IMG/VR virus record: IMGVR_UViG_3300027509_000005
Length of the DNA stretch: 47,383 nucleotides
DNA from: a virus
Strand: one strand, 5' to 3'
Below are positions 19,866 through 41,893 of this stretch, in pieces (the first letter of the stretch is position 1; each line of letters begins with the position of its first letter). A program made the position numbers and the translations under genes. The notes beneath the pieces were generated by a model. That model was given only the letters and a program-made list of their open reading frames with translations, was not told where the DNA came from and did no database searches.

Positions 19866-20123
19866 CTAAGCGTTTAATACTTTGATTAGTTCCGCCTCTT
19901 TCATCTTACTGTAACCCTTTACCCCTAGCATCTTTGCCTCAGCTTTCATGTCTTTAACGAGATCATCAGTAGACCATACCCTATCCTGCTTATTTCCAAG
20001 TAATGCGATTTCCTCCGCAACAGAAGCCATAGCCTCTGCATTTTCCTCAGCTTGCTTATCTGTTGTGTAATCCTCATCAATGAGAGCATCCATCTTTTTT
20101 TGTAGTGATTCTAATGTGTTCAT
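19866..20123 (-). CDS. Small acidic protein with C-terminal Rho_N/SAP-like motif
   Basis: ..LGVKGYSKMKEAELIKVLNA resembles the Rho N-terminal-domain motif (GxxGxSKMxKAELI). Confidence 0.5.
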   Translation of the reverse strand: MNTLESLQKKMDALIDEDYTTDKQAEENAEAMASVAEEIALLGNKQDRVWSTDDLVKDMKAEAKMLGVKGYSKMKEAELIKVLNA

Positions 20124-21586
20124 TACGATATTGTTACATCGGTTAGTTCATTTCTTGTGTGATACACAAATGTAGCCTGTGAACGCAATCCCTGAATCAA
20201 CCTACCATAAGCAGATGTCTGTGCGCCATTAAAGTTATATCTGTATCGTACCTCTACTTGTAGAGTCGCAGATGCTGGTACGTTAAGTCGAATAGCATTA
20301 CTGTGTCCCATTGTATGAGATCTTACATCAAGTGGTCTAATGACATCTGGGTTGGTATCTTCTCTCTGTGAAGCGTAGTTATACTCATCGTATGTTTCTG
20401 TGAGTACTGCTGCACCATTGACCAATAGTCTCCAGTCTGCCCATTGATACATTCTCATGCGTCGTAGTTGGTAGTAGAGTACACCGAAGTCTACAGATAC
20501 GTGTACGTCTGTTGCACATGATGGTGATGTCTCTGCTGTTGAAAGTGGAATCCAGTCACCTGTAATCGTACCTGTATTTGTTGTTACTGGAGCGATCCAA
20601 GTCTGTAGCCATCCAGTCCTGTTGGTCTGATCCATGAAAGGCCCAACACATTCTGTCTTAGTGAGTGTTTGTGGTGCTGGTATAACTGGAATAGCTGGGT
20701 GGTTTAATGGATAAGAAACGCCATTATGTACAACTTCTGTAGTCACACCTGCAACCTCTGTAGTATCAAATGTAGATGTTTGTGCAGGAGCTGTAGGTGC
20801 TGGATCTACTGGCCCAGAAGTACAAGGCTTTGGAGCGCATATTTCATATCCCTCTGGTATTTCGTCACATCCATCTACTTCAAGGCACTCTACTTCACGT
20901 TTATCTGTTGTCAGAGTTGCTCCTGCTGGTAGTGTGTTGGCAAATGTTGTTCCGTCTGTTGAGTATGAAACAGTGTGAGCAGAGCTTGTTCCGCCACTAT
21001 CAATGTTCCATGCTCGGAAGTTGTGCTGTCCTTCTGGTAGGAAGACTGGGCCAACTTCAGCAATATTGCTAGTTCTATCTTGGTATCCTAGTTCGTCAAT
21101 CAGTTGTAGTTGGCCACAACAGAATCCAACTTCAATAGCCCAGTAGCCTTCAGAGCCACCAGTATACCGAATCCATATACCTCCTGCTGGCACAGTAATA
21201 ACAGTATCAAGAACTTGAACATCTAACTCTCCTGCTGTATTGTCTGTGTCGTTCAGGTTAAGGTTTGTGTTGACTGAACTTGTAGTCGTTGGCAATGAGA
21301 AATCATGTGCCAATCGAAATGCTCGCCCAGCTGCTGTCGTTGAGTCAGCGATGGGGATAGTTGGTGCGGTGTCATGCCATTCTCGGTTAATCACGCCTGG
21401 AGTACCATCTGATAGCTTGTAGACTGGATAGCTATTAAGTGGAAGTGGTACAGTATTTCCGTTTGAGATCGTTAAGTCACATCCTTCAACTGATAGGATT
21501 TGCTCGTCTTTGTCTGTCTGATTTTCTACTGCCTTTTTGAGCTTGCATACGCAGTCCCAAATAGCATGCATTGATGGTAGTGCCAT
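20123..21586 (-). CDS. Cys-containing tail fiber / receptor-binding-like protein, 487 aa
   Basis: Lies within the run of tail genes. T/S/G-rich beta-type composition. Confidence 0.5.
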   Translation of the reverse strand: MALPSMHAIWDCVCKLKKAVENQTDKDEQILSVEGCDLTISNGNTVPLPLNSYPVYKLSDGTPGVINREWHDTAPTIPIADSTTAAGRAFRLAHDFSLPTTTSSVNTNLNLNDTDNTAGELDVQVLDTVITVPAGGIWIRYTGGSEGYWAIEVGFCCGQLQLIDELGYQDRTSNIAEVGPVFLPEGQHNFRAWNIDSGGTSSAHTVSYSTDGTTFANTLPAGATLTTDKREVECLEVDGCDEIPEGYEICAPKPCTSGPVDPAPTAPAQTSTFDTTEVAGVTTEVVHNGVSYPLNHPAIPVIPAPQTLTKTECVGPFMDQTNRTGWLQTWIAPVTTNTGTITGDWIPLSTAETSPSCATDVHVSVDFGVLYYQLRRMRMYQWADWRLLVNGAAVLTETYDEYNYASQREDTNPDVIRPLDVRSHTMGHSNAIRLNVPASATLQVEVRYRYNFNGAQTSAYGRLIQGLRSQATFVYHTRNELTDVTIS

Positions 21587-21590
21587 AGTT

Positions 21591-23696
21591 TTATTGTACT
21601 ACGAAGTTAGCTGAAATTAGTTTATCAGTTACAGGACACTGATAATCTACTCCATCCGTGGTGTGCGCAATTGTTCCTGTGAATGATACTGCTGTTGTTG
21701 ATCCGCTTGCCATTCCTGTGACAGTTTGTCCATCAGTGAACGTATGTGTCGTTCCTGCTGAATCTGTTACTGTGAATGTTCCACTCCATGAGGTTAGCGG
21801 TGCAGTCCCTGTAAAGAAGCTACCTGCTGTATGTGTTCCACTTCCTGCTGCTGTTGAGTTGAAGTCTGCTCCCATCTTTTGTGATGCACATATTACTTGA
21901 TCCCCTATAGGCTCTCCATTTTCATCACCGATTGGACAAGGACATTCGTCTGTGGGATCTCCGATAAGTTCGCACATTTTATCTGTTAGCGATTCTATAG
22001 CATCGGTTACTGAATCTGTGTTACTTGTGTCGCAAGGGTCACAACACGCTGTACATGAACCGTCTGTTACGATTGTCCAGTCATCAACGCTGTCAAGAAT
22101 TTCTCCTGTTGTTGCATTGATAAAGATGACTGTGCCATCGCTCATCGCTTGTGCTTGTACACAGATTTGCTCCTTGATTAGAATGATACATTCGTCAAAG
22201 TCTGCGTTGTTATCTACGTTACCAATGAAGTCAATGTCAGATGGTGAAGCATCTACTTCCCATTCGATGTGTCCACTGTTCTCACCCCATGAGAAATTAG
22301 ATAGTACAGAGTGTAGTTCGGGTGTTCCTGCTGCTGCAAGTGCTGCATCTACTGCTGCTTGTACGTCTGCTAGTGTGACTGTTTCTGTTGGGCTGTTTGG
22401 TAGTGTGTATGGGTAAGCTGTTCCGCCAAGGATAACGCTGATTGCTGTGATGTCCCAAGTGTCTTCGTTCTTGTCTGGGTTACTTTCAAGGCATGTTACT
22501 GTTTTTTCAGTTCCTTTGTTTGCTTCATAGCATACGTCCTTTGGATTTCCTACTGGGAATACTGGCGTTTCTGGATCTGGTTCTGGTATCGGCTCTCCTG
22601 TAGCACAGTCAACAAATATTCCTACCATTGTGTAGTCAACTAATGCTCCGTCAGCATCTTCTTGTAGATATGATACTTCTGGGCCGTCCCCACAATCTGT
22701 AATTGCTCGTACTACTGGTATAAAGTCTGTAAGTTCTGTTGAGTTTACGTTGTCACAACCATCTGTATATTCTGTTGTACATGCAGTTAGCGGTGTTTCA
22801 GCAAAATCTTCAACACAAGGGATCGCACATACTGGCTCGTACGGTGTGCCATCATCAAGAGTCGTGCTAACGATGTTTCCATCACAATCAAAACATTTAC
22901 GGAAGTAGATTGTTTCTGTTTCAACATACTGGACTACAAGTTTCTTTGGTGCTTTTACTTGTTCAGATGTGTATTGGATAAGTACAGGGACTTTATCACC
23001 TGGACAAACTCGGAAACCAACGTAACGTGCAAACATCTTGTTCAATACTACAAATGGTGCTGGTAGACCTCCACAACCATTCGGTAGGAAGTTACAAAAA
23101 GGCTCTACTGTTTGCGCCCATGGCATAATGCCATCAAGTCCTGTTGCCATTTGACTTACTTGGTCTGTCCATCCTGTAGCACTTGGTACTGTAAATGAAT
23201 CTACATCACCATTATCAAATTTAACTGTATACACTTGGTTAGTATGTGTGAAGCTAGTGAAAGTATTGTCTAGTCCACCTTCGATAAACTTATCTTTCCA
23301 ACATTCGCAATCAAGACATTCCTTTTTCGTACAAGGAATATCTGTAGGTGTAATAACTGGATCACCTGGAGTACCATCTTCATTGATTGGTGTAACAATC
23401 TGATCGTAGTTTCCAGTATCTTGATTACACAAAAATTCGATATCTGGTGCTATTGGCATTGGCTCATCACAAGATATGCCACTATCTAAGGTTGTGCTGT
23501 TTATTAGGACACCATCCTCAAAGAACTCAGTGACATAAATCCATGTGCCATCAGGCCCACAAATAGTACGAGGGGTAGACTCGTAATCCTTTTTCGCAAT
23601 CAATTCTTCTAGTTTTTCACAGATTGCCTCTAGCTCTTCTGTATTTCCAGTCAGGTCAATAGGGCAATTATTTTTGTCTACTAATACTACTTGCAT
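21591..23696 (-). CDS. Highly Cys-rich tail fiber-like protein, 701 aa
   Basis: About 33 Cys by manual count, acidic, D/T/G/P-rich. Tail-module position. Confidence 0.5.
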   Translation of the reverse strand: MQVVLVDKNNCPIDLTGNTEELEAICEKLEELIAKKDYESTPRTICGPDGTWIYVTEFFEDGVLINSTTLDSGISCDEPMPIAPDIEFLCNQDTGNYDQIVTPINEDGTPGDPVITPTDIPCTKKECLDCECWKDKFIEGGLDNTFTSFTHTNQVYTVKFDNGDVDSFTVPSATGWTDQVSQMATGLDGIMPWAQTVEPFCNFLPNGCGGLPAPFVVLNKMFARYVGFRVCPGDKVPVLIQYTSEQVKAPKKLVVQYVETETIYFRKCFDCDGNIVSTTLDDGTPYEPVCAIPCVEDFAETPLTACTTEYTDGCDNVNSTELTDFIPVVRAITDCGDGPEVSYLQEDADGALVDYTMVGIFVDCATGEPIPEPDPETPVFPVGNPKDVCYEANKGTEKTVTCLESNPDKNEDTWDITAISVILGGTAYPYTLPNSPTETVTLADVQAAVDAALAAAGTPELHSVLSNFSWGENSGHIEWEVDASPSDIDFIGNVDNNADFDECIILIKEQICVQAQAMSDGTVIFINATTGEILDSVDDWTIVTDGSCTACCDPCDTSNTDSVTDAIESLTDKMCELIGDPTDECPCPIGDENGEPIGDQVICASQKMGADFNSTAAGSGTHTAGSFFTGTAPLTSWSGTFTVTDSAGTTHTFTDGQTVTGMASGSTTAVSFTGTIAHTTDGVDYQCPVTDKLISANFVVQ

Positions 23697-23727
23697 ATAT
23701 TTTCATTATTACTCTTATCGTCTAAGA

Positions 23728-24507
23728 TTAGCACTCGCACTTACTTGTCATGTGGTAGTTTAGACCAATACCATTTTTGTGCCAGATGTTATTACCGCCT
23801 GAGTCCTCAATAGAAATAACCATTCTAAATGCATAATTCCTTGTAGTTTCTGCTGGAATACAGATTGGAACGTCTTTATCCATGTCCTCACTAATAAACC
23901 TGTCTGCATCAACTCTTTCACCACGCCTCTTGAAATCTTCCCATCCTGCGCCATCTATATTTATCTGTATGTTTCTTCGTACAAAAGTACCTGCTGATAT
24001 TGTGTACTCGTAAGGAACGTCAATATGCAGGAAACCGCACATAGTACAGCATGTGTCGTTTACAATGTCCACGCTATGATCTGCGCCAACGTACCACGTA
24101 TCATTGAATACACCGCCATCTGGATTAGCTGTATTAGCTGAAACGTCTTGATCAAAGGTGTTTTCTGATGGTGTGGTAGCGTCCTGACCGTTTCTTGTGA
24201 CTGGATTGCAAGGCATAATCAGCTTTTTACCAGCTTTTATGTTTTCATCGTCTATTTGGATAAGATTGCTGCCTGTAATGTCTTTCTGAACTCCACAGTT
24301 ATCCTGTAAACATGCTTGATTAATGATCTCAGATCGTATTTCGTCAAAAAAGGCTGCTTGCTCATCTTTAATCTCTTGAAGTTTAGGCTCTAAAATCCCA
24401 CATACTTCTTCTGATCGTACAAAAGAGTTGTTGCCACAAAAACACTCCTCGACTGCGTTTCCACAGCAAGATTGCATACTTGTAGTTGAGTTAAGTGTTT
24501 GCGTCAT
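23728..24507 (-). CDS. Cys-rich tail-associated protein, 259 aa
   Basis: ATG lies 8 nt downstream of a TGGTATAAT box. N-terminal Cys cluster. Confidence 0.5.
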   Translation of the reverse strand: MTQTLNSTTSMQSCCGNAVEECFCGNNSFVRSEEVCGILEPKLQEIKDEQAAFFDEIRSEIINQACLQDNCGVQKDITGSNLIQIDDENIKAGKKLIMPCNPVTRNGQDATTPSENTFDQDVSANTANPDGGVFNDTWYVGADHSVDIVNDTCCTMCGFLHIDVPYEYTISAGTFVRRNIQINIDGAGWEDFKRRGERVDADRFISEDMDKDVPICIPAETTRNYAFRMVISIEDSGGNNIWHKNGIGLNYHMTSKCEC

Positions 24508-24508
24508 A

Positions 24509-24524: not shown

Positions 24525-24527
24525 TGA

Positions 24528-27113
24528 TTAGTCTTCTTGCTGTGGTACGTTATTTGGATCAAACCAACACTCACCAGTTCCATTCCAACCTACGACACAA
24601 GGATTTCCGTCTGCGTCCGTTGCGCCTGTCTCTCTATGCCATCCTGCGAGGTTTACTGGACAGATTGGATATCCTGCTGGTCGTTCGCATGAAACGTATG
24701 TAGTGCCGCCTCCAGTGTTACCGCCTCCGTTATCCACAGGGCAAGTACATGAATTTAAGCCTGAAACGTCTGTAATTACGCCATTTTCATTTTTGTAACG
24801 TGTACCGCCACATATTTCAAATGGTGCGTCAGTATATCGTTCTACTTCTTTGGTGTATTTCTCACAAGAAGCAACATCTGCTGTAAGACACTCATAATCA
24901 TCTACACTCCAGTTTCCACCATTAGGGCTAGATACTAAGTCTAAGTTCTCCTGGTAAGTATCCATAGGCTGATCGTATAGACCTGCGTTGTTTCGATCTG
25001 GGTAGTAGTGACCTGCATAGAAGAAGTTAGGGTCATTAGAAACACCTGCAAAGTCGAAACAGTTGTGGCCACCTGCCGCATTACTATCTGCTAGTCCATG
25101 AGCATTTCCCCAACGTGCAGGAGATACATATAATACTTTGTCAGCAGTCAATCCTACTGTATTTCGATACCAAGGCATAATCATTGCTACGAAAGTCTCC
25201 CATGCTTGTACTGTAGTGTGTACTGGGTCTGCTGTATTTCCTCCTGGTGCTTCATGTGGCTCATTTACGATATCTACACCTAACAATGCTGGGTGATTCT
25301 TAACCTGTACTGTATTTCCATTGATATCAGTAAATGTATGATTCATCAATGAAAGGATATAGTTCTTGTAATGCGCTTCACCAGGGCTATTTGGAACTGT
25401 AACATTTTGTCCACAAATAGTAGCGTATTTCTTATCACCTTGACCTGGGTGCAATACGTCCAGCACTACTTGTATACCTGCTGTTTGTGCGTTATTTAGG
25501 AGATTAGATACATGACCGATCAATGCTGGATCTACTGCATTTGTATTACAGTCATATAGCCATGTTGTATCTCCTGCTACACCGCCTCCTGCTGGCTCTC
25601 CTAGAGGATATCGTATCGCTGTTATACAACGTCCATTTTGTGTAAGTTGCTGTAATGTTGAAGCAGATGGTGCATTTTGTGGAAGCTGATTGTTTTGGCT
25701 AAACTCATGTCCTGCAAGATTTATAAAACTAATCCCTGCCATATTACAGTGGTAGTCTTTCATTGGAATTGAGATACAAGTGTCGTTTTGAATATCTCCA
25801 TTACTGTCCATCTCGTAAGGGTTTAGTCCATAACCACACTGATTACATCCTGGTAGTTCTGACCATCCCCATCCTTCACCTGTAGCCCAAGGTGCTATAT
25901 CAACGCCATAACAAGCTGCTTGCTTGTAAACTAACTCATCAAGTGCGTTCCATTTTGCACAATCTCCTGGGATAACTGTCTTATCGTGTTCTGACATCCA
26001 TATTGTCGCATATTCAAAGATCACGCCACGCTGTCCCATTGTTTTAAGACATTCATAGTATGACTGCATTTGTGTCAAAGCTCGTGCCTGTAGAGCGTCT
26101 GTAGGCTCTAAGCACTCACAGAGATTGTTTGGGTCAGTTCCTTCAAAGCACTCCTCACCATCTTCTACCCATTCACATGTTCTCATGGGATCTACAATAA
26201 TTGTGCCATCTTCACAGACAGTACAGCAATCACATGGCGTGTAAGTTGTAAGGACGTTGCCATCTTTATCATAGAATCGAGTAGCTACGACTGTATCAGT
26301 ATTTGGGTTTTTATCAATCCTCTTTTCACCTTTATTGCATTTTCCGTCTGCATCCTCGTAACAGATATATCCATCAAAGATATCTGTAATTGTTGGTAGT
26401 GTGTTTGTTTCAGTAACACAAGCCACAATTAAGTTAGGGTCTAATACATCCCCATTCTTATCAAAATATAGCTGTGCGACTGTACTTGTATTTGTTGTTT
26501 CGTTTGTGGTCACTTGCTCCATACATGTACCCTGACTCTGAGATGCTCCATCTGTGTAACAAACAATCCTAAACTTCCTGTAGGATATCGTTGTATTGGT
26601 GTCTGTAGTGCCGCCTGTGCCGATTAAATCTTCAGCGCATACCCAAGCACCATTTATGTACTTTGCCACCTGTCCCTCGCCACAATCAAGGTCTGCGAGT
26701 ACGTCTGTATTTGGGATTGTAGTATCAGGAATTGTTGTGTCAGTGTCAGTATCTATATCATCTGCACATTCCCATGAAGTTCCGTTCCATTTTGGTAGTT
26801 GACCAACGCCACAAGAAAGAGACGCAAGGGTATCAGTCCCTCCAACGCCTACGTTATCGTCTCCACACTCCCATTCGCCAGAAGTGACGTTATACTTCAT
26901 TACTTGACCATCTCCACAGTCTGGTGGGGTAAATCCTCCACAATCGTCACAGTTAGCTTGTAAAGAGTCTAAGAACTCCTGCTCTGTGCCTGTATTTCCC
27001 TGTTCGAGCCATGCTTCATAGAGAGCTTGCATGATCTGATCGTTTGTAAGGTCTATTTCGACATTACAACCGCATCCTTTATAAGTTTGTGACCAAAAGT
27101 TGTGACCTGGCAT
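24528..27113 (-). CDS. Tail fiber with GH5-like (cellulase-family) glycoside hydrolase domain
   Basis: N-terminus ..QIMQALYEAWLEQGNTGTEQEFLDSLQ is the common tail-fiber N-motif. Three CxGxGQ..W.C modules follow. GH5-like string: VVLDVLHPGQG .. LLGVDIVNEPHE (NEP acid/base) .. FFYAGHYYPD. The nucleophile Glu was not confidently located. Confidence 0.55.
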   Translation of the reverse strand: MPGHNFWSQTYKGCGCNVEIDLTNDQIMQALYEAWLEQGNTGTEQEFLDSLQANCDDCGGFTPPDCGDGQVMKYNVTSGEWECGDDNVGVGGTDTLASLSCGVGQLPKWNGTSWECADDIDTDTDTTIPDTTIPNTDVLADLDCGEGQVAKYINGAWVCAEDLIGTGGTTDTNTTISYRKFRIVCYTDGASQSQGTCMEQVTTNETTNTSTVAQLYFDKNGDVLDPNLIVACVTETNTLPTITDIFDGYICYEDADGKCNKGEKRIDKNPNTDTVVATRFYDKDGNVLTTYTPCDCCTVCEDGTIIVDPMRTCEWVEDGEECFEGTDPNNLCECLEPTDALQARALTQMQSYYECLKTMGQRGVIFEYATIWMSEHDKTVIPGDCAKWNALDELVYKQAACYGVDIAPWATGEGWGWSELPGCNQCGYGLNPYEMDSNGDIQNDTCISIPMKDYHCNMAGISFINLAGHEFSQNNQLPQNAPSASTLQQLTQNGRCITAIRYPLGEPAGGGVAGDTTWLYDCNTNAVDPALIGHVSNLLNNAQTAGIQVVLDVLHPGQGDKKYATICGQNVTVPNSPGEAHYKNYILSLMNHTFTDINGNTVQVKNHPALLGVDIVNEPHEAPGGNTADPVHTTVQAWETFVAMIMPWYRNTVGLTADKVLYVSPARWGNAHGLADSNAAGGHNCFDFAGVSNDPNFFYAGHYYPDRNNAGLYDQPMDTYQENLDLVSSPNGGNWSVDDYECLTADVASCEKYTKEVERYTDAPFEICGGTRYKNENGVITDVSGLNSCTCPVDNGGGNTGGGTTYVSCERPAGYPICPVNLAGWHRETGATDADGNPCVVGWNGTGECWFDPNNVPQQED

Positions 27114-31708: not shown

Positions 31709-31755
31709 ATAATTTTTATTATACGCAGAACGCTCTATAATTCGCCCAAATGAAT

Positions 31756-31771
31756 TATTTACATTATACCA
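31756..31771 (-). promoter_or_regulatory. Late-type promoter box TGGTATAATGTAAATA
   Basis: This 16-mer is identical to 24509..24524 and lies upstream of the long fiber gene. A second TATAAT at 31718..31723 lies 9 nt before the ATG. Confidence 0.6.
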
Positions 31772-31783
31772 CAATCACGATTT

Positions 31784-32296
31784 TTAATTTAAGAAATCAT
31801 TTAGCACATTATATGCTTCTGTGATTTTCTTGAACTCTTTTGTGGTGTGATCTTTATGCTGTGTTTGTAATCTCCTAAAATAGTATCTGACATCTGCGAG
31901 ATTGGCTGATAATGGGAGATTTAGTATCTCGTAGTATTCTGCCTTCTCTTGGATGTTCTTAGACTTGATGAGAGGCGTGTGCTTGCCCTCTAAGGCTTGT
32001 CTGACGTTATTGTGACCTGTTACGAGTCTATCGTCTGGAAAAGCCAGTAAAGGGATCTGTACGTTGCCAAATAGCTTTACCATCTCTTGATAGTTTAGTG
32101 CCATTTGCTTATTTCTCTTACACGATCCATTCTTACAGTCATTTTCAGGGTTGATCTTGCAAGCGTGACACGTTACTGCTGTCTTGGTTGCATTTACGAT
32201 CCTAAAAGGCTTTGATTGCTGCCTAATAAGTGACATGAGCTTCTTATTTGAGCAACATGCCGCACAGTATAGGGTTAAAACTTCTACTTTTGCCAT
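31784..32296 (-). CDS. Glutaredoxin/thioredoxin-fold CxxC protein fused to a C-terminal J-like domain (HKD)
   Basis: N-terminus VEVLTLYCAACCS..FRIV .. VQIPLLAFPDDRLVTGHNNVRQAL gives the Grx topology: CxxC, cis-Pro, G motif. An inserted Cys4 segment (CHAC..C..C) is present. C-terminus YYEILNLPLSANLADVRYYFRRLQTQHKDHTTKEFKKITEAYNVLND covers J-domain helices I-III. Confidence 0.65.
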   Translation of the reverse strand: MAKVEVLTLYCAACCSNKKLMSLIRQQSKPFRIVNATKTAVTCHACKINPENDCKNGSCKRNKQMALNYQEMVKLFGNVQIPLLAFPDDRLVTGHNNVRQALEGKHTPLIKSKNIQEKAEYYEILNLPLSANLADVRYYFRRLQTQHKDHTTKEFKKITEAYNVLNDFLN

Positions 32297-35518: not shown

Positions 35519-35522
35519 AGTT

Positions 35523-36392
35523 TTATCCAAAATTTATATCATACTCCTCTTCATCTGTGAGCCTTGGTCTTCCAGCAGCCTCCGCAGCGTTATTGATATC
35601 TGCTATAAGTTGGTCGTAATCCTCTCCTGGTAAAGCTAAGTCTTTTGCGTCTCTCAATGCCTTAATAGACTTCAGGTAAAGATCAACAGGATCTTCTTGC
35701 AATAATGTAGCCTGTATCTGATTGTTAGGGTTTTCTTCGTTTGATATTTCAGCACCATCCTCATCAGTGAAACTTCCGATTGATGTTGGCTTTTGTCCAT
35801 CAGTCACATCACCATCTAGGCTATTTATGAGATCCTCTGCACTTCCAATATTTGTTCCGTCTGTTATTTCAAGTTTTTTGTTTGAAATTTCAAGGTTTCT
35901 CTCGGCAGTCCTCCCAAGAATATCATCAATGCTACCAGAAAGATCACTAACACCTGCCTCTACAGCCAACCCCTTTGCATTTACCAGAGTCGCTGCGTCA
36001 GTATCAGCTAGTGTTTGCTCACGCAGTAAGTCTGTTGCATCTTTCTTTTCTCTATCACTTACAACATCTATAGCTCTATTCGCTTGTCCTATCAGTAATT
36101 CCCTATCTGCTCGCAGTACATCACTAAGTTCTCTCTCAAATCCTGCGATCTGATTTATAGAAAAGTTATTATTTCCTGTAATAAACTGGGTTTTCTCTTG
36201 TGAGTTCCTATCAAAAGCAGCTATTTCATTTGCTGCAAGTCGTGTAGCCTCTGCTGTATTTCTCAAGTCGTTGTTCTGTGCAATGTTATTGAAGTTTTTT
36301 GTAGCTGCGAAAACATCAAAATTCTGAACAGGTCGCTGTGCAGAAGCATCGAAGTTAAAACTCTTATCTAATCCTAGTGCTTGTTCAAACAT
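35523..36392 (-). CDS. Cys-free internal virion-like protein, 289 aa
   Basis: Zero Cys, N/D/E/A-rich. Adjacent to the 1070-aa protein. Confidence 0.5.
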   Translation of the reverse strand: MFEQALGLDKSFNFDASAQRPVQNFDVFAATKNFNNIAQNNDLRNTAEATRLAANEIAAFDRNSQEKTQFITGNNNFSINQIAGFERELSDVLRADRELLIGQANRAIDVVSDREKKDATDLLREQTLADTDAATLVNAKGLAVEAGVSDLSGSIDDILGRTAERNLEISNKKLEITDGTNIGSAEDLINSLDGDVTDGQKPTSIGSFTDEDGAEISNEENPNNQIQATLLQEDPVDLYLKSIKALRDAKDLALPGEDYDQLIADINNAAEAAGRPRLTDEEEYDINFG

Positions 36393-36396: not shown

Positions 36397-36876
36397 TTAT
36401 GGGAGTGGTGTTATTGATCCTGCAAGCCTTAGTTCTTCCAACACATTACAAAGATCATAACGGAATCCATTACATTCTAGTATTATACCATTATTTGAGA
36501 TTGTCATTATTTCCACGCCATTTTCATCACATATAGAAAAAACCCAATCGCCTGTATTGTTGATGTCTTGTGGTCGCTCATGACGTACCCAAAAGAAGGG
36601 TTTACCATCTCGATTTACTCTTCCTACGCCAAAATCCCTTTCTATGTTTATTTTCCTGTATTTTCCATGAAGCATACCGACACGCTTCTGCAATTCTGGA
36701 TCAGGCTTGAATATCTGATCTCCATAAGCGTCATGCTCCCTCTGTAGCTTCTTCTCGCTGTCTGAGAGCTGTCTTGACTGGTCTATGGTCGGTTTACCCC
36801 TATGAGTATGCAAAACGCCGTCCTGACCATGTAGGACGCTCTTGTGATCTACCTGTGATTCTAAATCATTAGCCAT
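36397..36876 (-). CDS. Virion-module hypothetical protein, 159 aa
   Basis: TAATG overlap with the upstream gene. Confidence 0.55.
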   Translation of the reverse strand: MANDLESQVDHKSVLHGQDGVLHTHRGKPTIDQSRQLSDSEKKLQREHDAYGDQIFKPDPELQKRVGMLHGKYRKINIERDFGVGRVNRDGKPFFWVRHERPQDINNTGDWVFSICDENGVEIMTISNNGIILECNGFRYDLCNVLEELRLAGSITPLP

Positions 36877-38369
36877 TATGTTGTGTATTGTATGAATGAC
36901 CGCATAACTGGGGTATCAATGCCTAGTAGCCTCTTTTCATCTATGGAATTTTCATGCTTTCCGTTTCTGGTTTCTGTAATGAGCTTACCGCCTGTTGATG
37001 GGTTTAGCGTGATTCTGGTTTGCACATGAGTAGGCGTACATTCGTCAGGACAGATCAGATCTCCTTCGACTTCATAGATACTCAGTCCATCTTTTCTGTG
37101 AAATCCTGTAGAACTATCTCTATTCTCACCAAAACCATCTTTATTGTCGTATTTGTTCCACCCTGTATTGTTTACATTGGTAAAACAGTCAAAGTCGTTT
37201 CGTGAGCGTGTAAGCCAGTAGTAAAGCTGTATGTTTCGTGGAGACATGCCTTGAATGGGTAAATTAAACTCAATCGCAGGGAACTCAATGAATCCCTGTG
37301 TAAACTTACTCTTATCAAGTCTCTCTACCCACGCATTGCCTTTACCATCGCTAAATGAAGCTAGTAGTAGCTCTCCAGATGAATCAAAGTAGTATGGCGT
37401 GTCAAATGAAACACTATATGTACTCCATGTAGCCCTTAAATTAGGCGTGTATGGGCTTGCTAGTGATTCTAGCTTTACCTTCTCGCCTCGTGCGCTCTCA
37501 GCCCTCTGAAACAGAACTAACTCGTCTGACTCATCCTGCTTAATGATTGTCATAAGCCTTCCATCATATCCAAAAGTAGGCAAGTAGTCATGCGTTGTTT
37601 GATTGTACGAACTATTTATATATGTTCGTATTCGTGGTAATTGCTTACGAAAGAAGTCAGGGCCACCTGTTACCTGATTTATACGACCACAGTCATCACC
37701 ATCAATAGCGTATATAAGGTTAGAGTTGTGAGATCGAAGATACATGTGCGTACCTCGTCCATTTCTTGCTGTACCATAGCTTACTTCATCACCGAATGGG
37801 ATAATTGCGCTAATCGTATGATCGTCTCTCGTTTCATGCTGATTTAAAGATACATTATATCCCTCGTCAACTCTACCGAGATATTGACCATGACCAAAGT
37901 ATAAGAAACCAGCAGCAGCAGCCATTGGGTGTTCTTCTTGCTGTGTAACTTCCATCCTCTTAAAAACCTTCTTGTTTCCATTCTGCCACTCGAAGAAACC
38001 TAGCTGACAGCAACCAATAAAGTAAATTCTGTTTCTAAAGACATGTGCGCCAGTATGACCACCGCCATCTTCACATGCTGGATTGGTAAAGCAGAGATCC
38101 CATGTTCCATCTCTTTTTCGTACCCATATCTTACCTGTGATCTTTGAAAAAGCATAGGATACCTCTGTACCTGTCACAACGATATATGCTGGCTCGTTTG
38201 GTGCATTACCTTTTGTTTCTTCAACCATCGCATAAGGGCAACTAGCAAATCCTTGTTCTTCAACAATATTTGCAAATACCCAAGGGCAATAATCTTCTAT
38301 AATTCTACTTTTTGTAATACCACGATCAGCGTGTGACCTTCTGACTAATTGTTTGGTGACGCTCGCCAT
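36876..38369 (-). CDS. Virion structural protein, 497 aa (possible tail hub/nozzle)
   Basis: Call rests on position and size only. Confidence 0.45.
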   Translation of the reverse strand: MASVTKQLVRRSHADRGITKSRIIEDYCPWVFANIVEEQGFASCPYAMVEETKGNAPNEPAYIVVTGTEVSYAFSKITGKIWVRKRDGTWDLCFTNPACEDGGGHTGAHVFRNRIYFIGCCQLGFFEWQNGNKKVFKRMEVTQQEEHPMAAAAGFLYFGHGQYLGRVDEGYNVSLNQHETRDDHTISAIIPFGDEVSYGTARNGRGTHMYLRSHNSNLIYAIDGDDCGRINQVTGGPDFFRKQLPRIRTYINSSYNQTTHDYLPTFGYDGRLMTIIKQDESDELVLFQRAESARGEKVKLESLASPYTPNLRATWSTYSVSFDTPYYFDSSGELLLASFSDGKGNAWVERLDKSKFTQGFIEFPAIEFNLPIQGMSPRNIQLYYWLTRSRNDFDCFTNVNNTGWNKYDNKDGFGENRDSSTGFHRKDGLSIYEVEGDLICPDECTPTHVQTRITLNPSTGGKLITETRNGKHENSIDEKRLLGIDTPVMRSFIQYTT

Positions 38370-38378
38370 ATTGTAAGT

Positions 38379-39335
38379 TTAAGGTTGTGGTACCCACCAT
38401 GGATAATCGTTATTCTCTGCTTCTTCTCGGACTCCATAATCGTCATAACATGCTGGCTTTGCTGGCTTTGACCCTTCATCTATTGAAGCACATAGCCCAG
38501 GCTTACAGATATACATGTAATAACTAACTGCCTTTGATGGCTGCATGTTGTTTGTAGGCTGTGTATCGGCCTCTGCACCTTTGATAAGATCCTGCTCAAC
38601 ACTGAAACATCCGTCTGGCGTTTCTGCTGTAGTGTACTGGACATAATCTGTACCCTCTACTGCTGTATCTGAAACACATCCGCCATCAATATCAAGAATA
38701 AAGTGATAGTCATATCCGTCAGGAACTTCTAGTATTGGATCTTCATTAGGATCTAACTGTTCATCGCCTCGTGGAACCCATATAGCCTTTGTAGGTACTT
38801 TAAAGCTCAAATCAAACTGATCTGTAATGTCACAAACCCTGCTTTCTTCACATTGCATCGTATGCTTTGCCTCACCTGTACACATGCCAACGCTTGTAAG
38901 TCCATGACCATAGTAGTCTGTAGGATCCGCCATAACTGGAACTTGACCTCGCATATCGCACATTGTATAGCACTCTACGAGATCACCTGATTTGTTGTAG
39001 TAATTGATTTTTCGTCCGTCCATCAAAGCCCAACACTTATTACAGCATGGAGCGTCACTAGAAGTAATTGCATTGATTTTTACATCACCAAAGCACCAGT
39101 CAGTAAATTTATTGACCATATCTTCCATAAAGAAACGGAAAGGGACATATCCACAGTTATCTCCTGGAACGAAACCAAGTAGCCACATGTTATTAGGGAT
39201 TTCTCCATGCTCTTGGACATCCCATCTATCAAAGATTGCTGCGTCTACTGCTGCTGGACACATATTGCCTCTGCAACTGTCATCTCCACAGAGACTTCCG
39301 CAACATCCATCTGAGTAGTCTAATTCTCCTGCCAT
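38379..39335 (-). CDS. Phage tail-collar-domain fiber protein, extremely Cys-rich
   Basis: ..CWALMDGRKIN..YTMCDMRGQVP..GMCTGEAKHTM resembles the Collar-domain pattern (W..CDG..l ... F.LPDlRGr.P ... G..GE..HtL). About 21 Cys in 318 aa by manual count. Confidence 0.5.
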   Translation of the reverse strand: MAGELDYSDGCCGSLCGDDSCRGNMCPAAVDAAIFDRWDVQEHGEIPNNMWLLGFVPGDNCGYVPFRFFMEDMVNKFTDWCFGDVKINAITSSDAPCCNKCWALMDGRKINYYNKSGDLVECYTMCDMRGQVPVMADPTDYYGHGLTSVGMCTGEAKHTMQCEESRVCDITDQFDLSFKVPTKAIWVPRGDEQLDPNEDPILEVPDGYDYHFILDIDGGCVSDTAVEGTDYVQYTTAETPDGCFSVEQDLIKGAEADTQPTNNMQPSKAVSYYMYICKPGLCASIDEGSKPAKPACYDDYGVREEAENNDYPWWVPQP

Positions 39336-39339
39336 ATAT

Positions 39340-39531: not shown

Positions 39532-39535
39532 AATC

Positions 39536-39754
39536 TTAATATATTTTTCTTATTGGTGTTCGCACCTGTATCATTACTCGCTCTCCACAGTCATCAAAAT
39601 ATGATATTGGTTGACCGCAGATTGTCAGTACAGTTTTCATGTAAGTAGGTTTCTGTCTATCGTTATCTGGTAGTGATCCTTGTGGCTTTCTATTTACCAG
39701 AGAAGATGTGCATAATCCTTTACATTTACTGTTTTTACAACATTTATCACTCAT
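39536..39754 (-). CDS. Small Cys-rich protein (start MSDKCCK..)
   Basis: The ATG at 39754 lies 4 nt after the upstream stop. The longer track ORF would overlap the upstream gene by 59 nt. Confidence 0.5.
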   Translation of the reverse strand: MSDKCCKNSKCKGLCTSSLVNRKPQGSLPDNDRQKPTYMKTVLTICGQPISYFDDCGERVMIQVRTPIRKIY

Positions 39755-39758
39755 ATTT

Positions 39759-40622
39759 TTACTTATACTGATAAATTGGGAGATCATCGTGCCATCTGAC
39801 AGGTACTTCGTTCTCATCGCCTTTCTTGTAGGCTTTAATCATCTGTTGATAGAGTAACGTGTACATTTCTACTGTGCTGGCATGTGTGCCACCTTTTTGA
39901 CCATCGTGCCTATTCAAGTAGCGTAACGCTGTGAAATATGCCAAAACTCTGTACCACCGTGAAGGGAAATTAACGTTTTTCGTGTCTTTGGTGATAAATC
40001 CTGCACTTTGCCTATATGTTAGTCGCAATTCTCCGTACTGTGTGACCTTAAATGGCAGTATAATGCAGTTATTTTCCTTCAGATATACATCCTTGCACTT
40101 GAAACAGATTTTACACTTGTTAAACGCCATATCGTACGCCTCAGAGCCTCTCTTGCAGCATTTACTCTGGTTAAACTGGTTATGCTTGATAGGTTTCATC
40201 TCCTTGAAGCAACAACATCCTGCGTCATACTCTACTCGTATGATCTCTGCTGTATCTTTTGGGAGTGGATATTGATTGTAACGTCCCATCTCTCCATCGT
40301 CTTGTCCTTCCTCTACCATCACTGGAATGACTGTGGTACGTACAAAATCAGTAAGACACTTAGTCTCAGCGATGATTTCTTCCTGTAAAAAGCCTATAGA
40401 GAACTGTAGATCACGCAAAAAGGCATCAAACTTATAGCTTTCACCTTGCGTATTGAGTACGTTCATCTTTATTTCCCTGTAAAGGAAGTGGACATCGTTG
40501 CCTTCTGGACATTCTGGATTGGCAAACTTAGAGAAGTCTTGGGTACATTTATCTGTACAACCTTGCAAGTTATCTGCACTGTTGTACTCGTTGTACTGAT
40601 TGTAAGAATGATTTGCTGGCAT
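39759..40622 (-). CDS. Cys-rich virion protein downstream of the capsid gene (possible head-tail connector/adaptor)
   Basis: Position only. About 13 Cys in 287 aa, including CCC and CKICFKC clusters. Confidence 0.45.
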   Translation of the reverse strand: MPANHSYNQYNEYNSADNLQGCTDKCTQDFSKFANPECPEGNDVHFLYREIKMNVLNTQGESYKFDAFLRDLQFSIGFLQEEIIAETKCLTDFVRTTVIPVMVEEGQDDGEMGRYNQYPLPKDTAEIIRVEYDAGCCCFKEMKPIKHNQFNQSKCCKRGSEAYDMAFNKCKICFKCKDVYLKENNCIILPFKVTQYGELRLTYRQSAGFITKDTKNVNFPSRWYRVLAYFTALRYLNRHDGQKGGTHASTVEMYTLLYQQMIKAYKKGDENEVPVRWHDDLPIYQYK

Positions 40623-40672
40623 AATACTTTCCTTATACTACCCACCCTAGAAAGAGTGAGTAAGTAAGGAGA

Positions 40673-41893
40673 TTATTTCTCCTCCGCAACTTTCTTTTCT
40701 CCGCTTCCTGGTACAACATTACCATCTTGGCATGTTGGCTTCTCGTCTGCCTCTGGACACATTTCGCCATCAATAGTGACGTCACATACCTCTTCAGCAG
40801 CAGGGAACTCGATACAGAACAAGTTACAGTAGCTCTGACATGATCGGCTAAAGCCATACTTGAATCCGAATGTATGTGTAGTCTGGAAACCACAATTTAC
40901 ATTCCCCATCGTGTACATCATGTAGCTATTTCGCAACATCTTCACAGCATTTCGCTCACCAATCCAGATAACATTGTCTGGCATCTGGTTAAGGGTAATA
41001 AACTCAAATGTTCCTCCAAGTGCAGTACCTGCCTGACCTGTTGACATGTTGTAGTTCATTGAAAGGATAGAGCTGTTTCCGTCATAGATCGTACTAGAGA
41101 TAAATGACTTCATTGTACAAGCGTTACCCAAAGCAAGATATCGACTCGCTCGCCTTCCTGGGATCATCGCCAACTTCTTGTGAAGTTCTGCAAGGAAATC
41201 AGGGATCATGTGCTTAGTAAGTGGCTCTGAAACAGTAACCTTTGGAATACTGCCATCGTCCAACTGAGCTTGCATGAAAGCGTAAAAGTCCTTCTCAAAC
41301 TTGCAAAGAAAAGCGTCACAAAGTGCAAGCATTTTCTGGTAACCAAGCTGTAGGTAGTCTGATACATCTTCATCACAGAACTCATCGAAACAAATGTCTG
41401 CTTTCGCTGTAAGATCCTTCTTGTGGTCGATTGGGTTATGATTAGCACCGCCTACGAAGTTACATGTTGGTACTTCACCACAAATGTATTCGATAGCTTC
41501 CTGCTCATTCGCTCGGTCGTAACATATTTCTGTATATACTCCCATGTCCCATACCTTGTCCTCGACAAGTCCACTGTTCATGATTGTATTACGTTCTGAA
41601 AAGTCTCGTGCGAGTAGTCCTACTGACTTACCTTTGATGAACTTGTGTACGTCATCAATGTTAGTACAGTCATAGTTTTCTCCCCAATGCTTCAAACAGT
41701 CACGCATAGCGTCTACAGTATCAAAACTCTTGACATTGCTGATTGTGTTGTTAAAAGACTTTAGTTTGTGTGCGCCTTTACGTAGCGGATGATCTTCTCC
41801 GAAGAAAAGATTAAAGCTGATATAAGCAGCACCTTTTGATGGGTCTTGGTTCCTTCGTGAAAGATCCATTAGACCTCGTGGTAGTTTAGCCAT
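40673..41893 (-). CDS. Major capsid protein (putative)
   Basis: 406 aa, immediately after the scaffold-like gene and downstream of the portal. About 17 Cys by manual count. No motif-level proof. Confidence 0.6.
   Translation of the reverse strand: MAKLPRGLMDLSRRNQDPSKGAAYISFNLFFGEDHPLRKGAHKLKSFNNTISNVKSFDTVDAMRDCLKHWGENYDCTNIDDVHKFIKGKSVGLLARDFSERNTIMNSGLVEDKVWDMGVYTEICYDRANEQEAIEYICGEVPTCNFVGGANHNPIDHKKDLTAKADICFDEFCDEDVSDYLQLGYQKMLALCDAFLCKFEKDFYAFMQAQLDDGSIPKVTVSEPLTKHMIPDFLAELHKKLAMIPGRRASRYLALGNACTMKSFISSTIYDGNSSILSMNYNMSTGQAGTALGGTFEFITLNQMPDNVIWIGERNAVKMLRNSYMMYTMGNVNCGFQTTHTFGFKYGFSRSCQSYCNLFCIEFPAAEEVCDVTIDGEMCPEADEKPTCQDGNVVPGSGEKKVAEEK

What the first reader, a model, noticed from the sequence alone, without database searches (positions are those of the whole stretch)
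20123..41893. Hyper-cysteine exposed virion proteins contrast with completely Cys-free scaffold and internal proteins
Manual, approximate Cys counts for exposed proteins:
- putative capsid: 17 in 406 aa
- 287-aa connector-like protein: 13
- tail-collar protein: 21 in 318 aa
- 701-aa fiber: about 33
- the GH5 fiber, the 259-aa protein and the long fiber: dozens more, often as CC, CxC and CxxC clusters

By contrast, the 1070-aa protein, the 289-aa protein, the 228-aa scaffold and the 107-aa protein contain no Cys at all. Four to seven percent Cys is several-fold above the roughly 1 percent typical of bacterial and phage proteomes.

The split separates particle-surface proteins from proteins that must leave or pass through the portal or tail. 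That suggests a disulfide- or metal-stapled particle, not a general codon bias.
Basis: seen in the sequence. Interest (0 to 1): 0.62.

Follow-up and report, generated by a model that had tools for sequence, protein, structure and literature searches.

The report
Cysteine-packed phage particle proteins
An uncultured bacteriophage has shell, neck and fibre proteins with 4-6% cysteine, about twice the density in the one phage family proven to be held together by disulfide bonds, so its particle is probably disulfide-stitched too. Its cysteine-free internal proteins are simply the phage norm.

Summary
The counts are right. The capsid has 17 Cys in 406 aa, and the 287-, 318-, 701-, 861- and 259-aa proteins have 13, 20, 33, 43 and 14. 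The scaffold-like 228-aa protein and the 107-, 289- and 1074-aa proteins have none (0 of 1761 aa with a 63-aa ORF).

The cause is not base composition, because TGY codons are equally common out of frame in both sets. The split recurs in three lineages whose capsids share only about 30% identity, and 10 of the 17 capsid Cys are invariant.

Two corrections apply. First, Cys-free scaffolds, ejected proteins and tape measures are normal: T7 gp9, gp15 and gp16 and two tape-measure-type proteins also have none. Only the Cys-rich half is unusual. Second, enrichment over this phage's own early proteins is only 1.7-fold, because the whole proteome is Cys-rich (2.3%).

Disulfide-networked tailed phages are already known (Agrobacterium phage Milano, cyanophage Pam3). 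This is an unrelated, more extreme case. Disulfides themselves remain untested.

A CxxC protein with a J domain sits in a conserved slot of the virion module. It may be a thioredoxin-fold folding helper, but its fold is unconfirmed. The scan noted a similar Cys split on another phage genome (e1-3276225).

The parts
40673..41893 (-). Major capsid protein, 406 aa, 17 Cys (4.2%), with no CC, CxC or CxxC motif
   Evidence: Counts. It follows the scaffold-like gene. The AF2 model is poor (pLDDT 36), yet nearly all top Foldseek hits are HK97-fold capsid proteins, best E 1.2e-3. Ten Cys are invariant in 4 sequences at about 30% identity: C76, C124, C138, C144, C168, C173, C334, C352, C356, C379.
39759..40622 (-). 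287-aa virion structural protein, 13 Cys including a CCC and a CC run
   Evidence: Counts. Matches phrog_2125 'virion structural protein', E 2e-5. The G001 homologue has 11 Cys, 6 of them aligned. The L009 homologue has 10 Cys.
39536..39817 (-). Small Cys-knot-like protein: a 93-aa ORF that probably starts at M23 (MSDKCC..., 71 aa), 6 Cys with a CC-x4-C-x3-C head
   Evidence: Sequence. L001 encodes MDKCC... (70 aa) with all 6 Cys. The G001 homologue has 6 Cys, 5 aligned. Near-threshold Pfam hit to MAR_sialic_bdg, 24.5 against 25.1 bits.
38379..39335 (-). 318-aa protein, 20 Cys (6.3%), with an N-terminal CCx3Cx4Cx4C cluster
   Evidence: 17 Cys are shared with L001 and 5 with G001. No family hit.
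36397..38369 (-). 497-aa (10 Cys) and 159-aa (3 Cys) conserved virion proteins with intermediate Cys content
   Evidence: They are 36% and 34% identical to G001 homologues. No Pfam, PHROG or PDB match.
32306..36392 (-). 289-aa and 1074-aa (1070 from the ATG) Cys-free, His-free proteins, probably internal/ejected or tape-measure-like
   Evidence: 0 Cys and 0 His. The 1074-aa protein hits phrog_2534 'released from the phage upon host infection', E 6.5e-9. The G001 counterparts (320 and 1475 aa) are also Cys-free.
31784..32296 (-). 170-aa protein: N-terminal CxxC domain (possible thioredoxin fold with a Cys-rich insert) plus a C-terminal J domain reading HKD instead of HPD
   Evidence: Pfam DnaJ E 4e-6, 27.2 against 27.8 bits. 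Foldseek hits are all J domains, probability about 1.0. The N-terminus is homologous to the G001 slot protein P0008, E 8e-4. P0008 gives sub-threshold Glutaredoxin and Thioredoxin_3 hits, E 0.024 and 0.035. The N-terminal AF2 model is unreliable.
28604..31774 (-). 1056-aa fibre, 27 Cys, with a YadA-like head at residues about 769-966
   Evidence: PDB 1p9h (YadA) E 3.8e-5. 16 of the 27 Cys align with Cys in the G001 890-aa homologue.
27532..28584 (-). 350-aa spike-like accessory protein, only 2 Cys: an exception to the pattern
   Evidence: No homologue in G001. No family hit. The beta-helix reading is inference from the sequence.
24528..27113 (-). 861-aa fibre with a GH5 domain, 43 Cys, and three tandem CGxGQ...W.C units each bounded by two Cys
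   Evidence: PF00150 at 27.4 bits, above the 23.5 cutoff. Repeats at residues 66, 101 and 144.
20123..24507 (-). 259-aa (14 Cys), 701-aa (33 Cys) and 487-aa (11 Cys) distal fibre/tail proteins with N-terminal Cys clusters
   Evidence: Their N-termini are similar to G001 fibre proteins.
41919..42987 (-). 228-aa scaffold-like and 107-aa proteins, both Cys-free
   Evidence: They lie between the portal and the capsid gene. Their counterparts in L001, G001 and L009 are also Cys-free.
44034..46229 (-). Portal, 731 aa, 5 Cys (0.7%)
   Evidence: phrog_332 E 1.3e-7, a family labelled 'head-tail adaptor'; the T7 record gives its gene 8 (gp8) the same label, which is why I read it as a portal. It is 84% identical to L001.

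Best explanation
The window is a circular permutation of the whole ~47.3 kb genome of an uncultured tailed phage, probably a podovirus-like phage of a Gram-negative host.

The proteins that make up the lasting outer architecture (HK97-type capsid, capsid-proximal proteins, fibres) have gained many structurally conserved cysteines. I infer that these form a network of disulfide bonds, both within chains and between subunits. The bonds would covalently stiffen the extracellular particle and anchor fibres and decorations through N-terminal Cys clusters and CC doublets, as in Agrobacterium phage Milano and cyanophage Pam3. A few clusters may bind metal instead.

None of these proteins has a signal peptide, so assembly is cytoplasmic. 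Oxidation would happen at or after lysis, or with help from the phage's own CxxC/J-domain protein, which sits in a conserved slot between the Cys-free giant protein and the first fibre.

The scaffold and the internal or ejected proteins keep the usual Cys-free composition of such proteins. As a side effect, this keeps them from being trapped in the network.

Shown: the counts, their conservation, independence from base composition, the J domain, and convergence with Milano. Inferred: the disulfides themselves, exposure of each protein, the thioredoxin fold, and any catalytic role.
For: - Exact counts and heterogeneity statistics. The frame control excludes base bias.
- The same split appears in L001 (portal 84% identical), in G001 (IMG/VR UViG, 51 kb, 47% GC, capsid 33% identical) and in L009 (capsid 29% identical).
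- 10 of 17 capsid Cys are invariant, against 42 of 389 other positions.
- Between the window and L001, Cys is 90% conserved against 74.6% for other residues, p = 0.003, second only to Trp. Between the window and G001, Cys is 43% conserved against about 31% overall.
- Variable capsid Cys tend to appear and disappear together: 192+197, 100+245, 259+370. This is weak evidence from three lineages.
- CC doublets number 16 against 8.4 expected (P = 0.0065), and Cx3C is also enriched. Milano uses CC and Cx3C motifs for separate disulfides: gp13 Cys22/23 and MCP Cys186/190 and Cys455/456 (PMC10491603).
- The GH5 fibre has three tandem repeat units, each closed by exactly two Cys.
- The capsid has no CxxC or CxC motif, and His is not enriched, which argues against Zn sites there.
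- No signal peptides are visible at the N-termini.
- Benchmarks: Milano has 1.4% Cys overall and 2.1% in structural proteins, T4 0.9%, A511 0.7% (PMC10811340). In 7-7-1 the MCP has 2.1%, the sheath 3.2% and gp115 0 of 778. T7 MCP has 0.58% and its fibre 0.54%. Here the whole proteome has 2.30% and the capsid 4.2%.
- The CxxC/J-domain protein is conserved in the same slot in two lineages. Pfam scans of the window's ORFs of at least 60 aa found no ribonucleotide reductase or other usual glutaredoxin client.
Against: - No disulfide or contact could be examined. The AF2 models were poor (capsid pLDDT 36.5; CxxC domain below 50).
- Per-protein Cys counts are mostly odd (8 of 13), so there is no even-number signal.
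If the niche is anoxic, spontaneous oxidation would be unlikely.
- Short CxnC pairs and N-terminal clusters could equally hold Zn or Fe-S.
- The thioredoxin-fold evidence is sub-threshold, and the J domain lacks the HPD motif.
- A spike-like 350-aa protein is Cys-poor, and the G001 fibres carry only 1.3-2.6% Cys, so 'exposed = Cys-rich' is not strict.
- Early genes are also Cys-rich (2.2%).
Confidence: 0.6

Rival explanations
1. Most of the extra cysteines coordinate metals (Zn knuckles or Fe-S clusters) that fold or staple the virion proteins, and few or none form disulfides.
For: CxxC is enriched 1.8-fold, and N-terminal clusters such as CCx3Cx4Cx4C and CCx4Cx3C recur. The conserved capsid pairs Cx5C, Cx4C and Cx3C could build a site. 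Metal sites are stable in a reducing cytoplasm, where virions assemble. From my own knowledge, an Fe-S cluster has been reported in lambda gpL-type tail-tip proteins.
Against: The capsid has no CC, CxC or CxxC motif, and His is not enriched in the rich proteins. CxC is not enriched. The repeat units in the GH5 fibre have exactly two Cys each, which fits loops better than 4-ligand sites. 206 Cys are far more than the few metal sites known in phage tails.
Confidence: 0.13
2. The cysteines are largely free thiols with no cross-linking role. Cys richness would reflect a lineage or niche bias (for example an anoxic habitat where Cys is cheap and safe), tolerated in folded proteins and absent from low-complexity ones.
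For: The whole proteome is Cys-rich: 2.30% overall and 2.21% in early genes, close to the 2.2-2.7% expected from base composition alone. The Cys-free proteins are also depleted in His and Trp, as expected for extended or disordered proteins. There is no even-number bias. The environment is unknown.
Against: Cys is the second most conserved residue between close relatives, and 59% of capsid Cys are invariant at 30% identity. The pattern persists at 47% GC in G001. The portal, the terminase and the 350-aa protein, which are folded proteins in the same genome, stay at 0.6-0.8%.
Confidence: 0.15
3. The phage runs its own oxidative-folding pathway. The CxxC/J-domain protein would catalyse disulfide formation or isomerisation in virion proteins inside the cell, analogous to the cytoplasmic pathways of poxviruses and other giant viruses. 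This is a sub-case of the best explanation, not exclusive of it.
For: A CxxC protein is conserved in the same virion-module slot in two lineages. The G001 copy shows beta1-CGDC-alpha1 and a TFPA(cis-Pro)-like strand, with weak Glutaredoxin and Thioredoxin_3 hits. A real J domain is fused in the window phage. No usual glutaredoxin client is present.
Against: All thioredoxin-family hits are below threshold, and hhalign and PDB profile searches were inconclusive. No sulfhydryl oxidase (Erv/ALR) was found in G001, or in the Pfam scans of the window's ORFs of at least 60 aa, to feed oxidising equivalents. The J domain reads HKD, not HPD. The G001 copy has no J domain. L001 and L009 do not reach this slot.
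Confidence: 0.25

Closest known systems
Agrobacterium phage Milano and relatives 7-7-1 and OLIVR4: tailed-phage virions with an extensive disulfide network (PMC10491603, PMC10811340)
   Same: Cysteine is elevated specifically in structural proteins and conserved among relatives. CC and Cx3C motifs are used for separate bonds. N-terminal Cys of fibres and linking proteins anchor them. The tape-measure-like protein is Cys-free (7-7-1 gp115, 0 of 778).
   Different: There is no detectable sequence similarity, so the trait is convergent. Milano is a contractile-tailed flagellotropic phage, while no sheath, tube or baseplate family was found here. Cys density is about twice as high here (capsid 4.2% against 2.1%; proteome 2.3% against 1.4%). 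Disulfides are proven for Milano by cryo-EM and DTT, and only inferred here. I did not check whether Milano or 7-7-1 encodes a comparable CxxC protein.
Cyanophage Pam3: tail fibres disulfide-linked to Cys-rich loops of the baseplate wedge (PMC9942802)
   Same: Cys-rich regions serve as docking platforms for fibre N-termini. Here N-terminal Cys are enriched (P = 0.019).
   Different: Pam3's bonds are confined to the baseplate and fibres, while here the capsid and capsid-proximal proteins are the richest. No homology was tested or found.
T7 scaffold gp9 and internal core proteins gp14/gp15/gp16; siphophage tape-measure proteins
   Same: They are Cys-free (0/307, 1/196, 0/747, 0/1318; TMP 0/1093) and low in His and Trp, and they occupy a similar genome position after the capsid and tail genes. 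They leave the particle or pass through the tail.
   Different: There is no sequence similarity. The only hint that the 1074-aa protein is ejected is a PHROG label.
Cytoplasmic disulfide pathways of large DNA viruses (vaccinia E10R-A2.5L-G4L; Erv-type oxidases of other giant viruses); from my own knowledge and earlier scan note e1-3276225
   Same: A virus-encoded CxxC, thioredoxin-like protein is linked to virion morphogenesis in a reducing cytoplasm.
   Different: No Erv/ALR oxidase is present here, the fold of the CxxC domain is unconfirmed, and the hosts are bacteria.
ERdj5/DNAJC10 (J domain plus thioredoxin domains) and the zinc-finger thiol-oxidoreductase activity of DnaJ; from my own knowledge. 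ERdj5 appears among the J-domain fold hits
   Same: One polypeptide combines a J domain with CxxC redox-type modules, coupling Hsp70 recruitment to disulfide chemistry.
   Different: The domain order is reversed and the protein is tiny (170 aa). The HPD motif reads HKD. It carries a single putative thioredoxin-like domain with a Cys-rich insert.

Membership tests
Disulfide-networked tailed-phage virion (Milano type; a functional class) | Cys fraction of structural proteins clearly above the phage norm (about 0.7-0.9%) | tested here: met
   3.65% in 13 virion proteins and 4.2% in the capsid, against Milano 2.1% (PMC10811340) and T7 about 0.6%.
Disulfide-networked tailed-phage virion (Milano type; a functional class) | Cysteines conserved among related phages | tested here: met
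   10 of 17 capsid Cys are invariant at about 30% identity. 61 of 68 are conserved against L001.
Disulfide-networked tailed-phage virion (Milano type; a functional class) | Disulfide bonds seen in the particle (cryo-EM or mass spectrometry) and stability sensitive to reductant | not testable with these tools
   This needs particles. The AF2 models were too poor to examine Cys proximity.
Disulfide-networked tailed-phage virion (Milano type; a functional class) | Sequence homology to Milano/7-7-1 structural proteins (clade membership) | tested here: not met
   tblastn of all late proteins against the 7-7-1 genome found no hit at E <= 0.01.
HK97-fold major capsid protein | HK97 fold, or a match to a capsid family | tested here: inconclusive
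   No Pfam, PHROG or PDB sequence hit. With a low-confidence model, about 45 of the 50 top Foldseek hits are HK97 capsids, best E 1.2e-3. The gene position after the scaffold fits.
Thioredoxin-fold thiol-disulfide oxidoreductase (Grx/NrdH/Trx) | CxxC at the N-terminus of helix 1 following strand 1 | tested here: met
   VLTLYCAACC (window) and FMVYLMQSGCGDC (G001), both followed by a predicted helix.
Thioredoxin-fold thiol-disulfide oxidoreductase (Grx/NrdH/Trx) | Family-level sequence match above threshold, or a confident fold | tested here: inconclusive
   The window protein has no hit. G001 P0008 scores Glutaredoxin E 0.024 and Thioredoxin_3 E 0.035, both below cutoffs. NCBIfam E 0.3. The PDB profile search found nothing. 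hhalign probabilities are below 10%. AF2 pLDDT is below 50.
J-domain protein (DnaJ/Hsp40 co-chaperone) | J-domain fold or sequence | tested here: met
   PF00226 E 4e-6 (27.2 bits against cutoff 27.8). NCBIfam DnaJ models also hit. Foldseek hits are all J domains at probability about 1.0.
J-domain protein (DnaJ/Hsp40 co-chaperone) | HPD tripeptide between helices II and III, needed to stimulate Hsp70 | tested here: not met
   The sequence reads ...LQTQHKDHT..., so it is a J-like domain and Hsp70 activation is doubtful.
Erv/ALR sulfhydryl oxidase (as in the earlier scan finding on another phage) | PF04777 domain encoded in the genome | tested here: not met
   G001 gives only an 11.9-bit noise hit on the non-coding strand, like those in control genomes. 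Pfam scans of the window's ORFs of at least 60 aa found none.
Glycoside hydrolase family 5 (domain of the 861-aa fibre) | Pfam PF00150 above the gathering score | tested here: met
   27.4 bits against 23.5, residues 482-714. Catalytic Glu residues were not checked.

The most novel reading that the evidence does not exclude
This orphan phage family makes its Cys-rich virion with its own folding catalyst. A minimal thioredoxin-fold CxxC protein, carrying a J-like domain in this phage, is encoded inside the tail module and would introduce or shuffle disulfides in capsid and fibre proteins before or at lysis. That would be a dedicated virion oxidative-folding factor in a bacteriophage; my literature searches found none described. 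It would be convergent with the cytoplasmic disulfide pathways of giant eukaryotic viruses.
Probability: 0.2. Interest if true: 0.8.

Novelty: new variant of a known kind. Interest (0 to 1): 0.5.

Why it matters
If the cysteines are cross-links, this would be the most heavily disulfide-stitched tailed-phage particle I know of. It has about twice the Cys density of Milano, and the trait evolved independently in a lineage with no cultured or reference relatives. That would show covalent thiol networks to be a recurrent solution for particle robustness, not a quirk of Agrobacterium phages.

It would raise the same open question as for Milano: how is such a particle assembled in a reducing cytoplasm, and how is it unlocked at infection? 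The conserved CxxC gene is a concrete candidate to test.

There is also a practical lesson. Absence of Cys in scaffolds, ejection proteins and tape measures is a general phage feature and should not be read as a signal in itself.

Tried and rejected
- **Nucleotide or codon bias:** rejected by the out-of-frame TGY control.
- **Alternative genetic code or artefact:** all ORFs are long and open under table 11, and the same proteins are found on independent Logan and IMG/VR contigs.
- **Sec export to the periplasm for DsbA oxidation:** no signal peptides are visible.
- **Phage-encoded Erv/ALR oxidase** (lead from e1-3276225): absent.
- **Structure route:** AF2 of the capsid from a 4-sequence alignment gave pLDDT 36.5, and the 170-aa protein gave an N-terminus below 50. 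Cys-Cys geometry therefore could not be assessed. Foldseek was used only for fold class.
- **Enlarging the family:**
  - The reference phage database gave no hit for the capsid or portal.
  - The 5.8-billion-protein search found only self, L001 and P0005.
  - The HMMER search of 1.8 billion representatives found 2 true relatives.
  - The genome and metagenome scans were empty, and the IMG/VR scans returned only G001.
- **Host and environment:**
  - The tRNA-Asn has no exact match in 185k genomes, and the DUF5648 protein has no close genomic relative.
  - TerL is only about 30% identical to phages of Proteobacteria. A LydA-type holin hints at a Gram-negative host.
- **Even-number (parity) test for disulfides:** no signal.

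Full report
**What the window is**

All genes lie on the minus strand. The same phage was assembled independently as a 47,286-bp Logan contig in which a 483-aa large terminase spans the window's two ends. The window is therefore a circular permutation of essentially the whole genome.

The late module reads, in transcription order:
- small terminase (GP3_package), an HNH protein, and TerL;
- portal, 731 aa (phrog_332);
- N6/N4 methyltransferase;
- a 107-aa protein and a 228-aa acidic scaffold-like protein;
- capsid, 406 aa;
- proteins of 287, 93, 63, 318, 497, 159, 289 and 1074 aa;
- the 170-aa CxxC/J-domain protein;
- a 1056-aa fibre with a YadA-like head;
- a 350-aa protein;
- an 861-aa fibre with a GH5 domain;
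- proteins of 259, 701 and 487 aa, followed by the lysis genes.

The capsid and portal match nothing among 50,697 reference phages, and almost nothing in the module hits PHROGs or Pfam. TerL is about 30% identical to terminases of phages of Proteobacteria. A LydA-type holin was found. The host is otherwise unknown.

**The observation**

| Protein | Cys | % Cys |
|---|---|---|
| capsid (406 aa) | 17 | 4.2 |
| 287-aa | 13 | 4.5 |
| 93-aa ORF | 6 | 6.5 |
| 318-aa | 20 (not 21) | 6.3 |
| 701-aa | 33 | 4.7 |
| 861-aa | 43 | 5.0 |
| 259-aa | 14 | 5.4 |
| 1056-aa | 27 | 2.6 |
| 497-aa | 10 | 2.0 |
| 487-aa | 11 | 2.3 |
| 170-aa | 7 | 4.1 |

The 1074-aa (1070 from its ATG), 289-, 228-, 107- and 63-aa proteins have none, which is 0 of 1761 residues.
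- Heterogeneity within the module is extreme (chi2 = 117, p = 5e-17).
- It is not a nucleotide effect. TGY triplets occur out of frame at similar rates in the rich set (1.5% and 4.2%) and the free set (1.3% and 5.4%). In frame they are 3.64% against 0%.

**Two corrections to the framing**

First, the phage's early genes are themselves Cys-rich: 2.21% overall, 3.05% in proteins under 120 aa (several look like zinc fingers or HNH proteins) and 1.62% in larger ones. Enrichment of the virion set (3.65%) is therefore 1.67-fold (Fisher p = 1.3e-5), or 2.25-fold against the larger early proteins. The whole proteome holds 2.30% Cys.

Second, the Cys-free half is the ordinary state of such proteins.
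- T7 scaffold gp9 has 0 of 307, and the core proteins gp15 and gp16 have 0 of 747 and 0 of 1318.
- The tape measure of Klebsiella phage 2b has 0 of 1093.
- The tape-measure-like gp115 of Agrobacterium phage 7-7-1 has 0 of 778.
- Like those proteins, the window's 1074- and 289-aa proteins are also devoid of His and almost devoid of Trp. Their lack of Cys is part of a general composition of extended, transient proteins.

What is unusual is only the Cys-rich side. T7's capsid and fibre hold 0.58% and 0.54%.

**Conservation**

Very few relatives exist in very large databases, but those found are informative.
- **L001** (portal 84% identical) has the same counts: capsid 17, 287-aa 13, 307-aa 19, 497-aa 10, scaffold 0. 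61 of 68 Cys are conserved against 74.6% of other residues (p = 0.003). Cys is second only to Trp.
- **G001** is a complete 51-kb IMG/VR genome with terminal repeats and 47% GC. Its capsid is 33% identical and the module is syntenic. It shows the same split:

  | G001 protein | Cys |
  |---|---|
  | capsid | 14 |
  | 276-aa | 11 |
  | 92-aa | 6 |
  | 302-aa | 9 |
  | 105-, 272-, 164-, 320- and 1475-aa proteins | 0 (2336 residues in all) |

- **L009** (capsid 29% identical) again has a Cys-free 107-aa protein and scaffold, a capsid with 19 Cys, a 273-aa protein with 10, and a next gene starting MSKCCGKPDCNDQC.

Across the four capsids, 10 of the window's 17 Cys are invariant, against 42 of 389 other positions. 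Lineage-specific Cys tend to come and go together (192+197; 100+245; 259+370), although three lineages are too few for a test.

**Arrangement of the cysteines**

- CC doublets (16 against 8.4 expected, P = 0.0065), CxxC (15 against 8.5, P = 0.022) and Cx3C (P = 0.038) are modestly enriched. CxC is not.
- Cys is enriched in the first 40 residues (P = 0.019). Recurring N-terminal clusters include DGCCGSLCGDDSCRGNMC, MSDKCCKNSKCKGLC and SCCGNAVEECFCG.
- The GH5 fibre carries three tandem CGxGQ...W.C units, each closed by exactly two Cys.
- The capsid has no CC, CxC or CxxC motif and no excess His.
- None of the proteins has a signal peptide, so assembly is cytoplasmic as usual.

**What is already known**

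Disulfide-stitched tailed phages have been described.
[quoted passage not shown] DTT abolishes its resistance to sonication and heat, and its relatives 7-7-1 and OLIVR4 conserve the cysteines (PMC10491603).
- Its proteome has 1.4% Cys and its structural proteins 2.1%, against 0.9% in T4 and 0.7% in A511 (PMC10811340).
- In Milano, CC doublets (gp13 Cys22/23; MCP Cys455/456) and a Cx3C pair (MCP Cys186/190) each bond to different partners. Short N-terminal Cys strands tie linking proteins and fibres to their platforms.
- Cyanophage Pam3 ties its fibres to Cys-rich wedge loops in the same way (PMC9942802).
- My own count on 7-7-1 gives MCP 2.1%, sheath 3.2%, baseplate proteins 3.0-4.9% and the tape-measure-like gp115 0%.

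The window phage shares no detectable sequence similarity with 7-7-1, has about twice the capsid Cys density, and shows the same motif habits. I therefore read it as an independent and more extreme instance of the same strategy. The disulfides themselves are inferred, not shown.

**The CxxC/J-domain gene**

This lead came from earlier scan note e1-3280624. The 170-aa protein at 31784-32296 has a genuine C-terminal J domain:
- Pfam E 4e-6, just under the cutoff;
- NCBIfam DnaJ hits;
- every Foldseek hit is a J domain at probability about 1.0.

Its HPD motif reads HKD.

The N-terminal 110 residues (VLTLY-CAAC-helix ... Cys-rich insert ... VQIPLL) are homologous (E 8e-4) to the 127-aa protein in the same slot of G001, between the Cys-free giant protein and the conserved first fibre. 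That protein reads FMVYLMQSG-CGDC-helix ... CSNC-x6-CNDC ... TFPAIY. It gives sub-threshold Glutaredoxin (E 0.024) and Thioredoxin_3 (E 0.035) hits over the active-site region.

Everything else was inconclusive: the AF2 N-terminus has pLDDT below 50, a PDB profile search was empty, and hhalign was negligible. No Erv/ALR oxidase is present in G001, and none was found in the Pfam scans of the window's ORFs of at least 60 aa. Those scans also found no ribonucleotide reductase that would give a glutaredoxin its usual job.

A virion-module thiol-disulfide helper is therefore plausible (about 0.25) but unproven. It is the part that would be truly new.

**Exceptions and limits**

- The 350-aa spike-like protein (2 Cys) has no G001 homologue. 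It looks like a recent acquisition that has not taken on the lineage's Cys habit.
- The G001 fibres are only 1.3-2.6% Cys.
- Per-protein Cys counts show no even-number bias.
Oxic or anoxic matters for the disulfide reading.
- The labels 'connector-like' and 'tail collar' remain guesses. The capsid assignment rests on gene position and weak fold evidence.

**Verdict**

This is a new, convergent and more extreme variant of a known kind (Milano-type disulfide-networked virions), with a candidate phage-encoded redox/chaperone gene as its most novel element. The scan has seen a similar Cys split on another phage genome (e1-3276225), there with a sulfhydryl oxidase that is absent here.

Noticed in passing
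window 24528-27113 (-), residues 66-159 of the 861-aa protein: Three tandem units CGDGQVMKYNVTSGEWEC, CGVGQLPKWNGTSWEC and CGEGQVAKYINGAWVC. Each is bounded by two Cys and lies upstream of the GH5 domain. A weak phrog_7703 hit covers residues 104-177.
   Followed up: partly
window 27532-28584 (-) and 27175-27515 (-): The 350-aa protein looks like a beta-helix spike, has only 2 Cys and has no homologue in G001. The apparent 418-nt gap after it holds two back-to-back 56-aa Lys-rich, Cys-free ORFs.
   Followed up: partly
window 39536-39817 (-): The 93-aa ORF overlaps the 287-aa gene by 59 nt and probably starts at M23 (MSDKCC..., 71 aa). It gives a near-threshold hit to the apicomplexan disulfide-rich MAR sialic-acid-binding repeat (PF10564, 24.5 against 25.1 bits).
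   Followed up: partly
window 32306-36392 (-): The 1074- and 289-aa proteins contain no His at all (0 of 1363) and almost no Trp, in addition to no Cys. The 1074-aa protein hits phrog_2534, 'released from the phage upon host infection'.
   Followed up: partly
window 43116-44024 (-) against L001 9584-9952: The slot between the portal and the scaffold operon is variable. The window has an N6/N4 DNA methyltransferase. The 84%-identical relative L001 has instead a 122-aa, 9-Cys HNH/endonuclease VII-like gene.
   Followed up: no
window 991-1063 (-): tRNA-Asn(GTT). A 36-nt stretch of it has no exact match in one genome each of 185,579 prokaryote species, so it gives no host clue.
   Followed up: yes
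window 12272-12523 (-), 4214-4477 (-), 522-947 (-): Several small early proteins are very Cys-rich: 83 aa with 10 Cys and three CxxC, 87 aa with 10 Cys, and an HNH protein of 141 aa with 9 Cys. They look like zinc-finger or HNH-type proteins and account for much of the 2.2% Cys in early genes.
   Followed up: no
window 10862-11974 (-) and 19046-19864 (-): A 370-aa protein carries a strong DUF5648 domain (E 3.5e-37). A 272-aa PAP2-superfamily protein lies next to the lysis genes. Both are auxiliary genes of unknown role.
   Followed up: no
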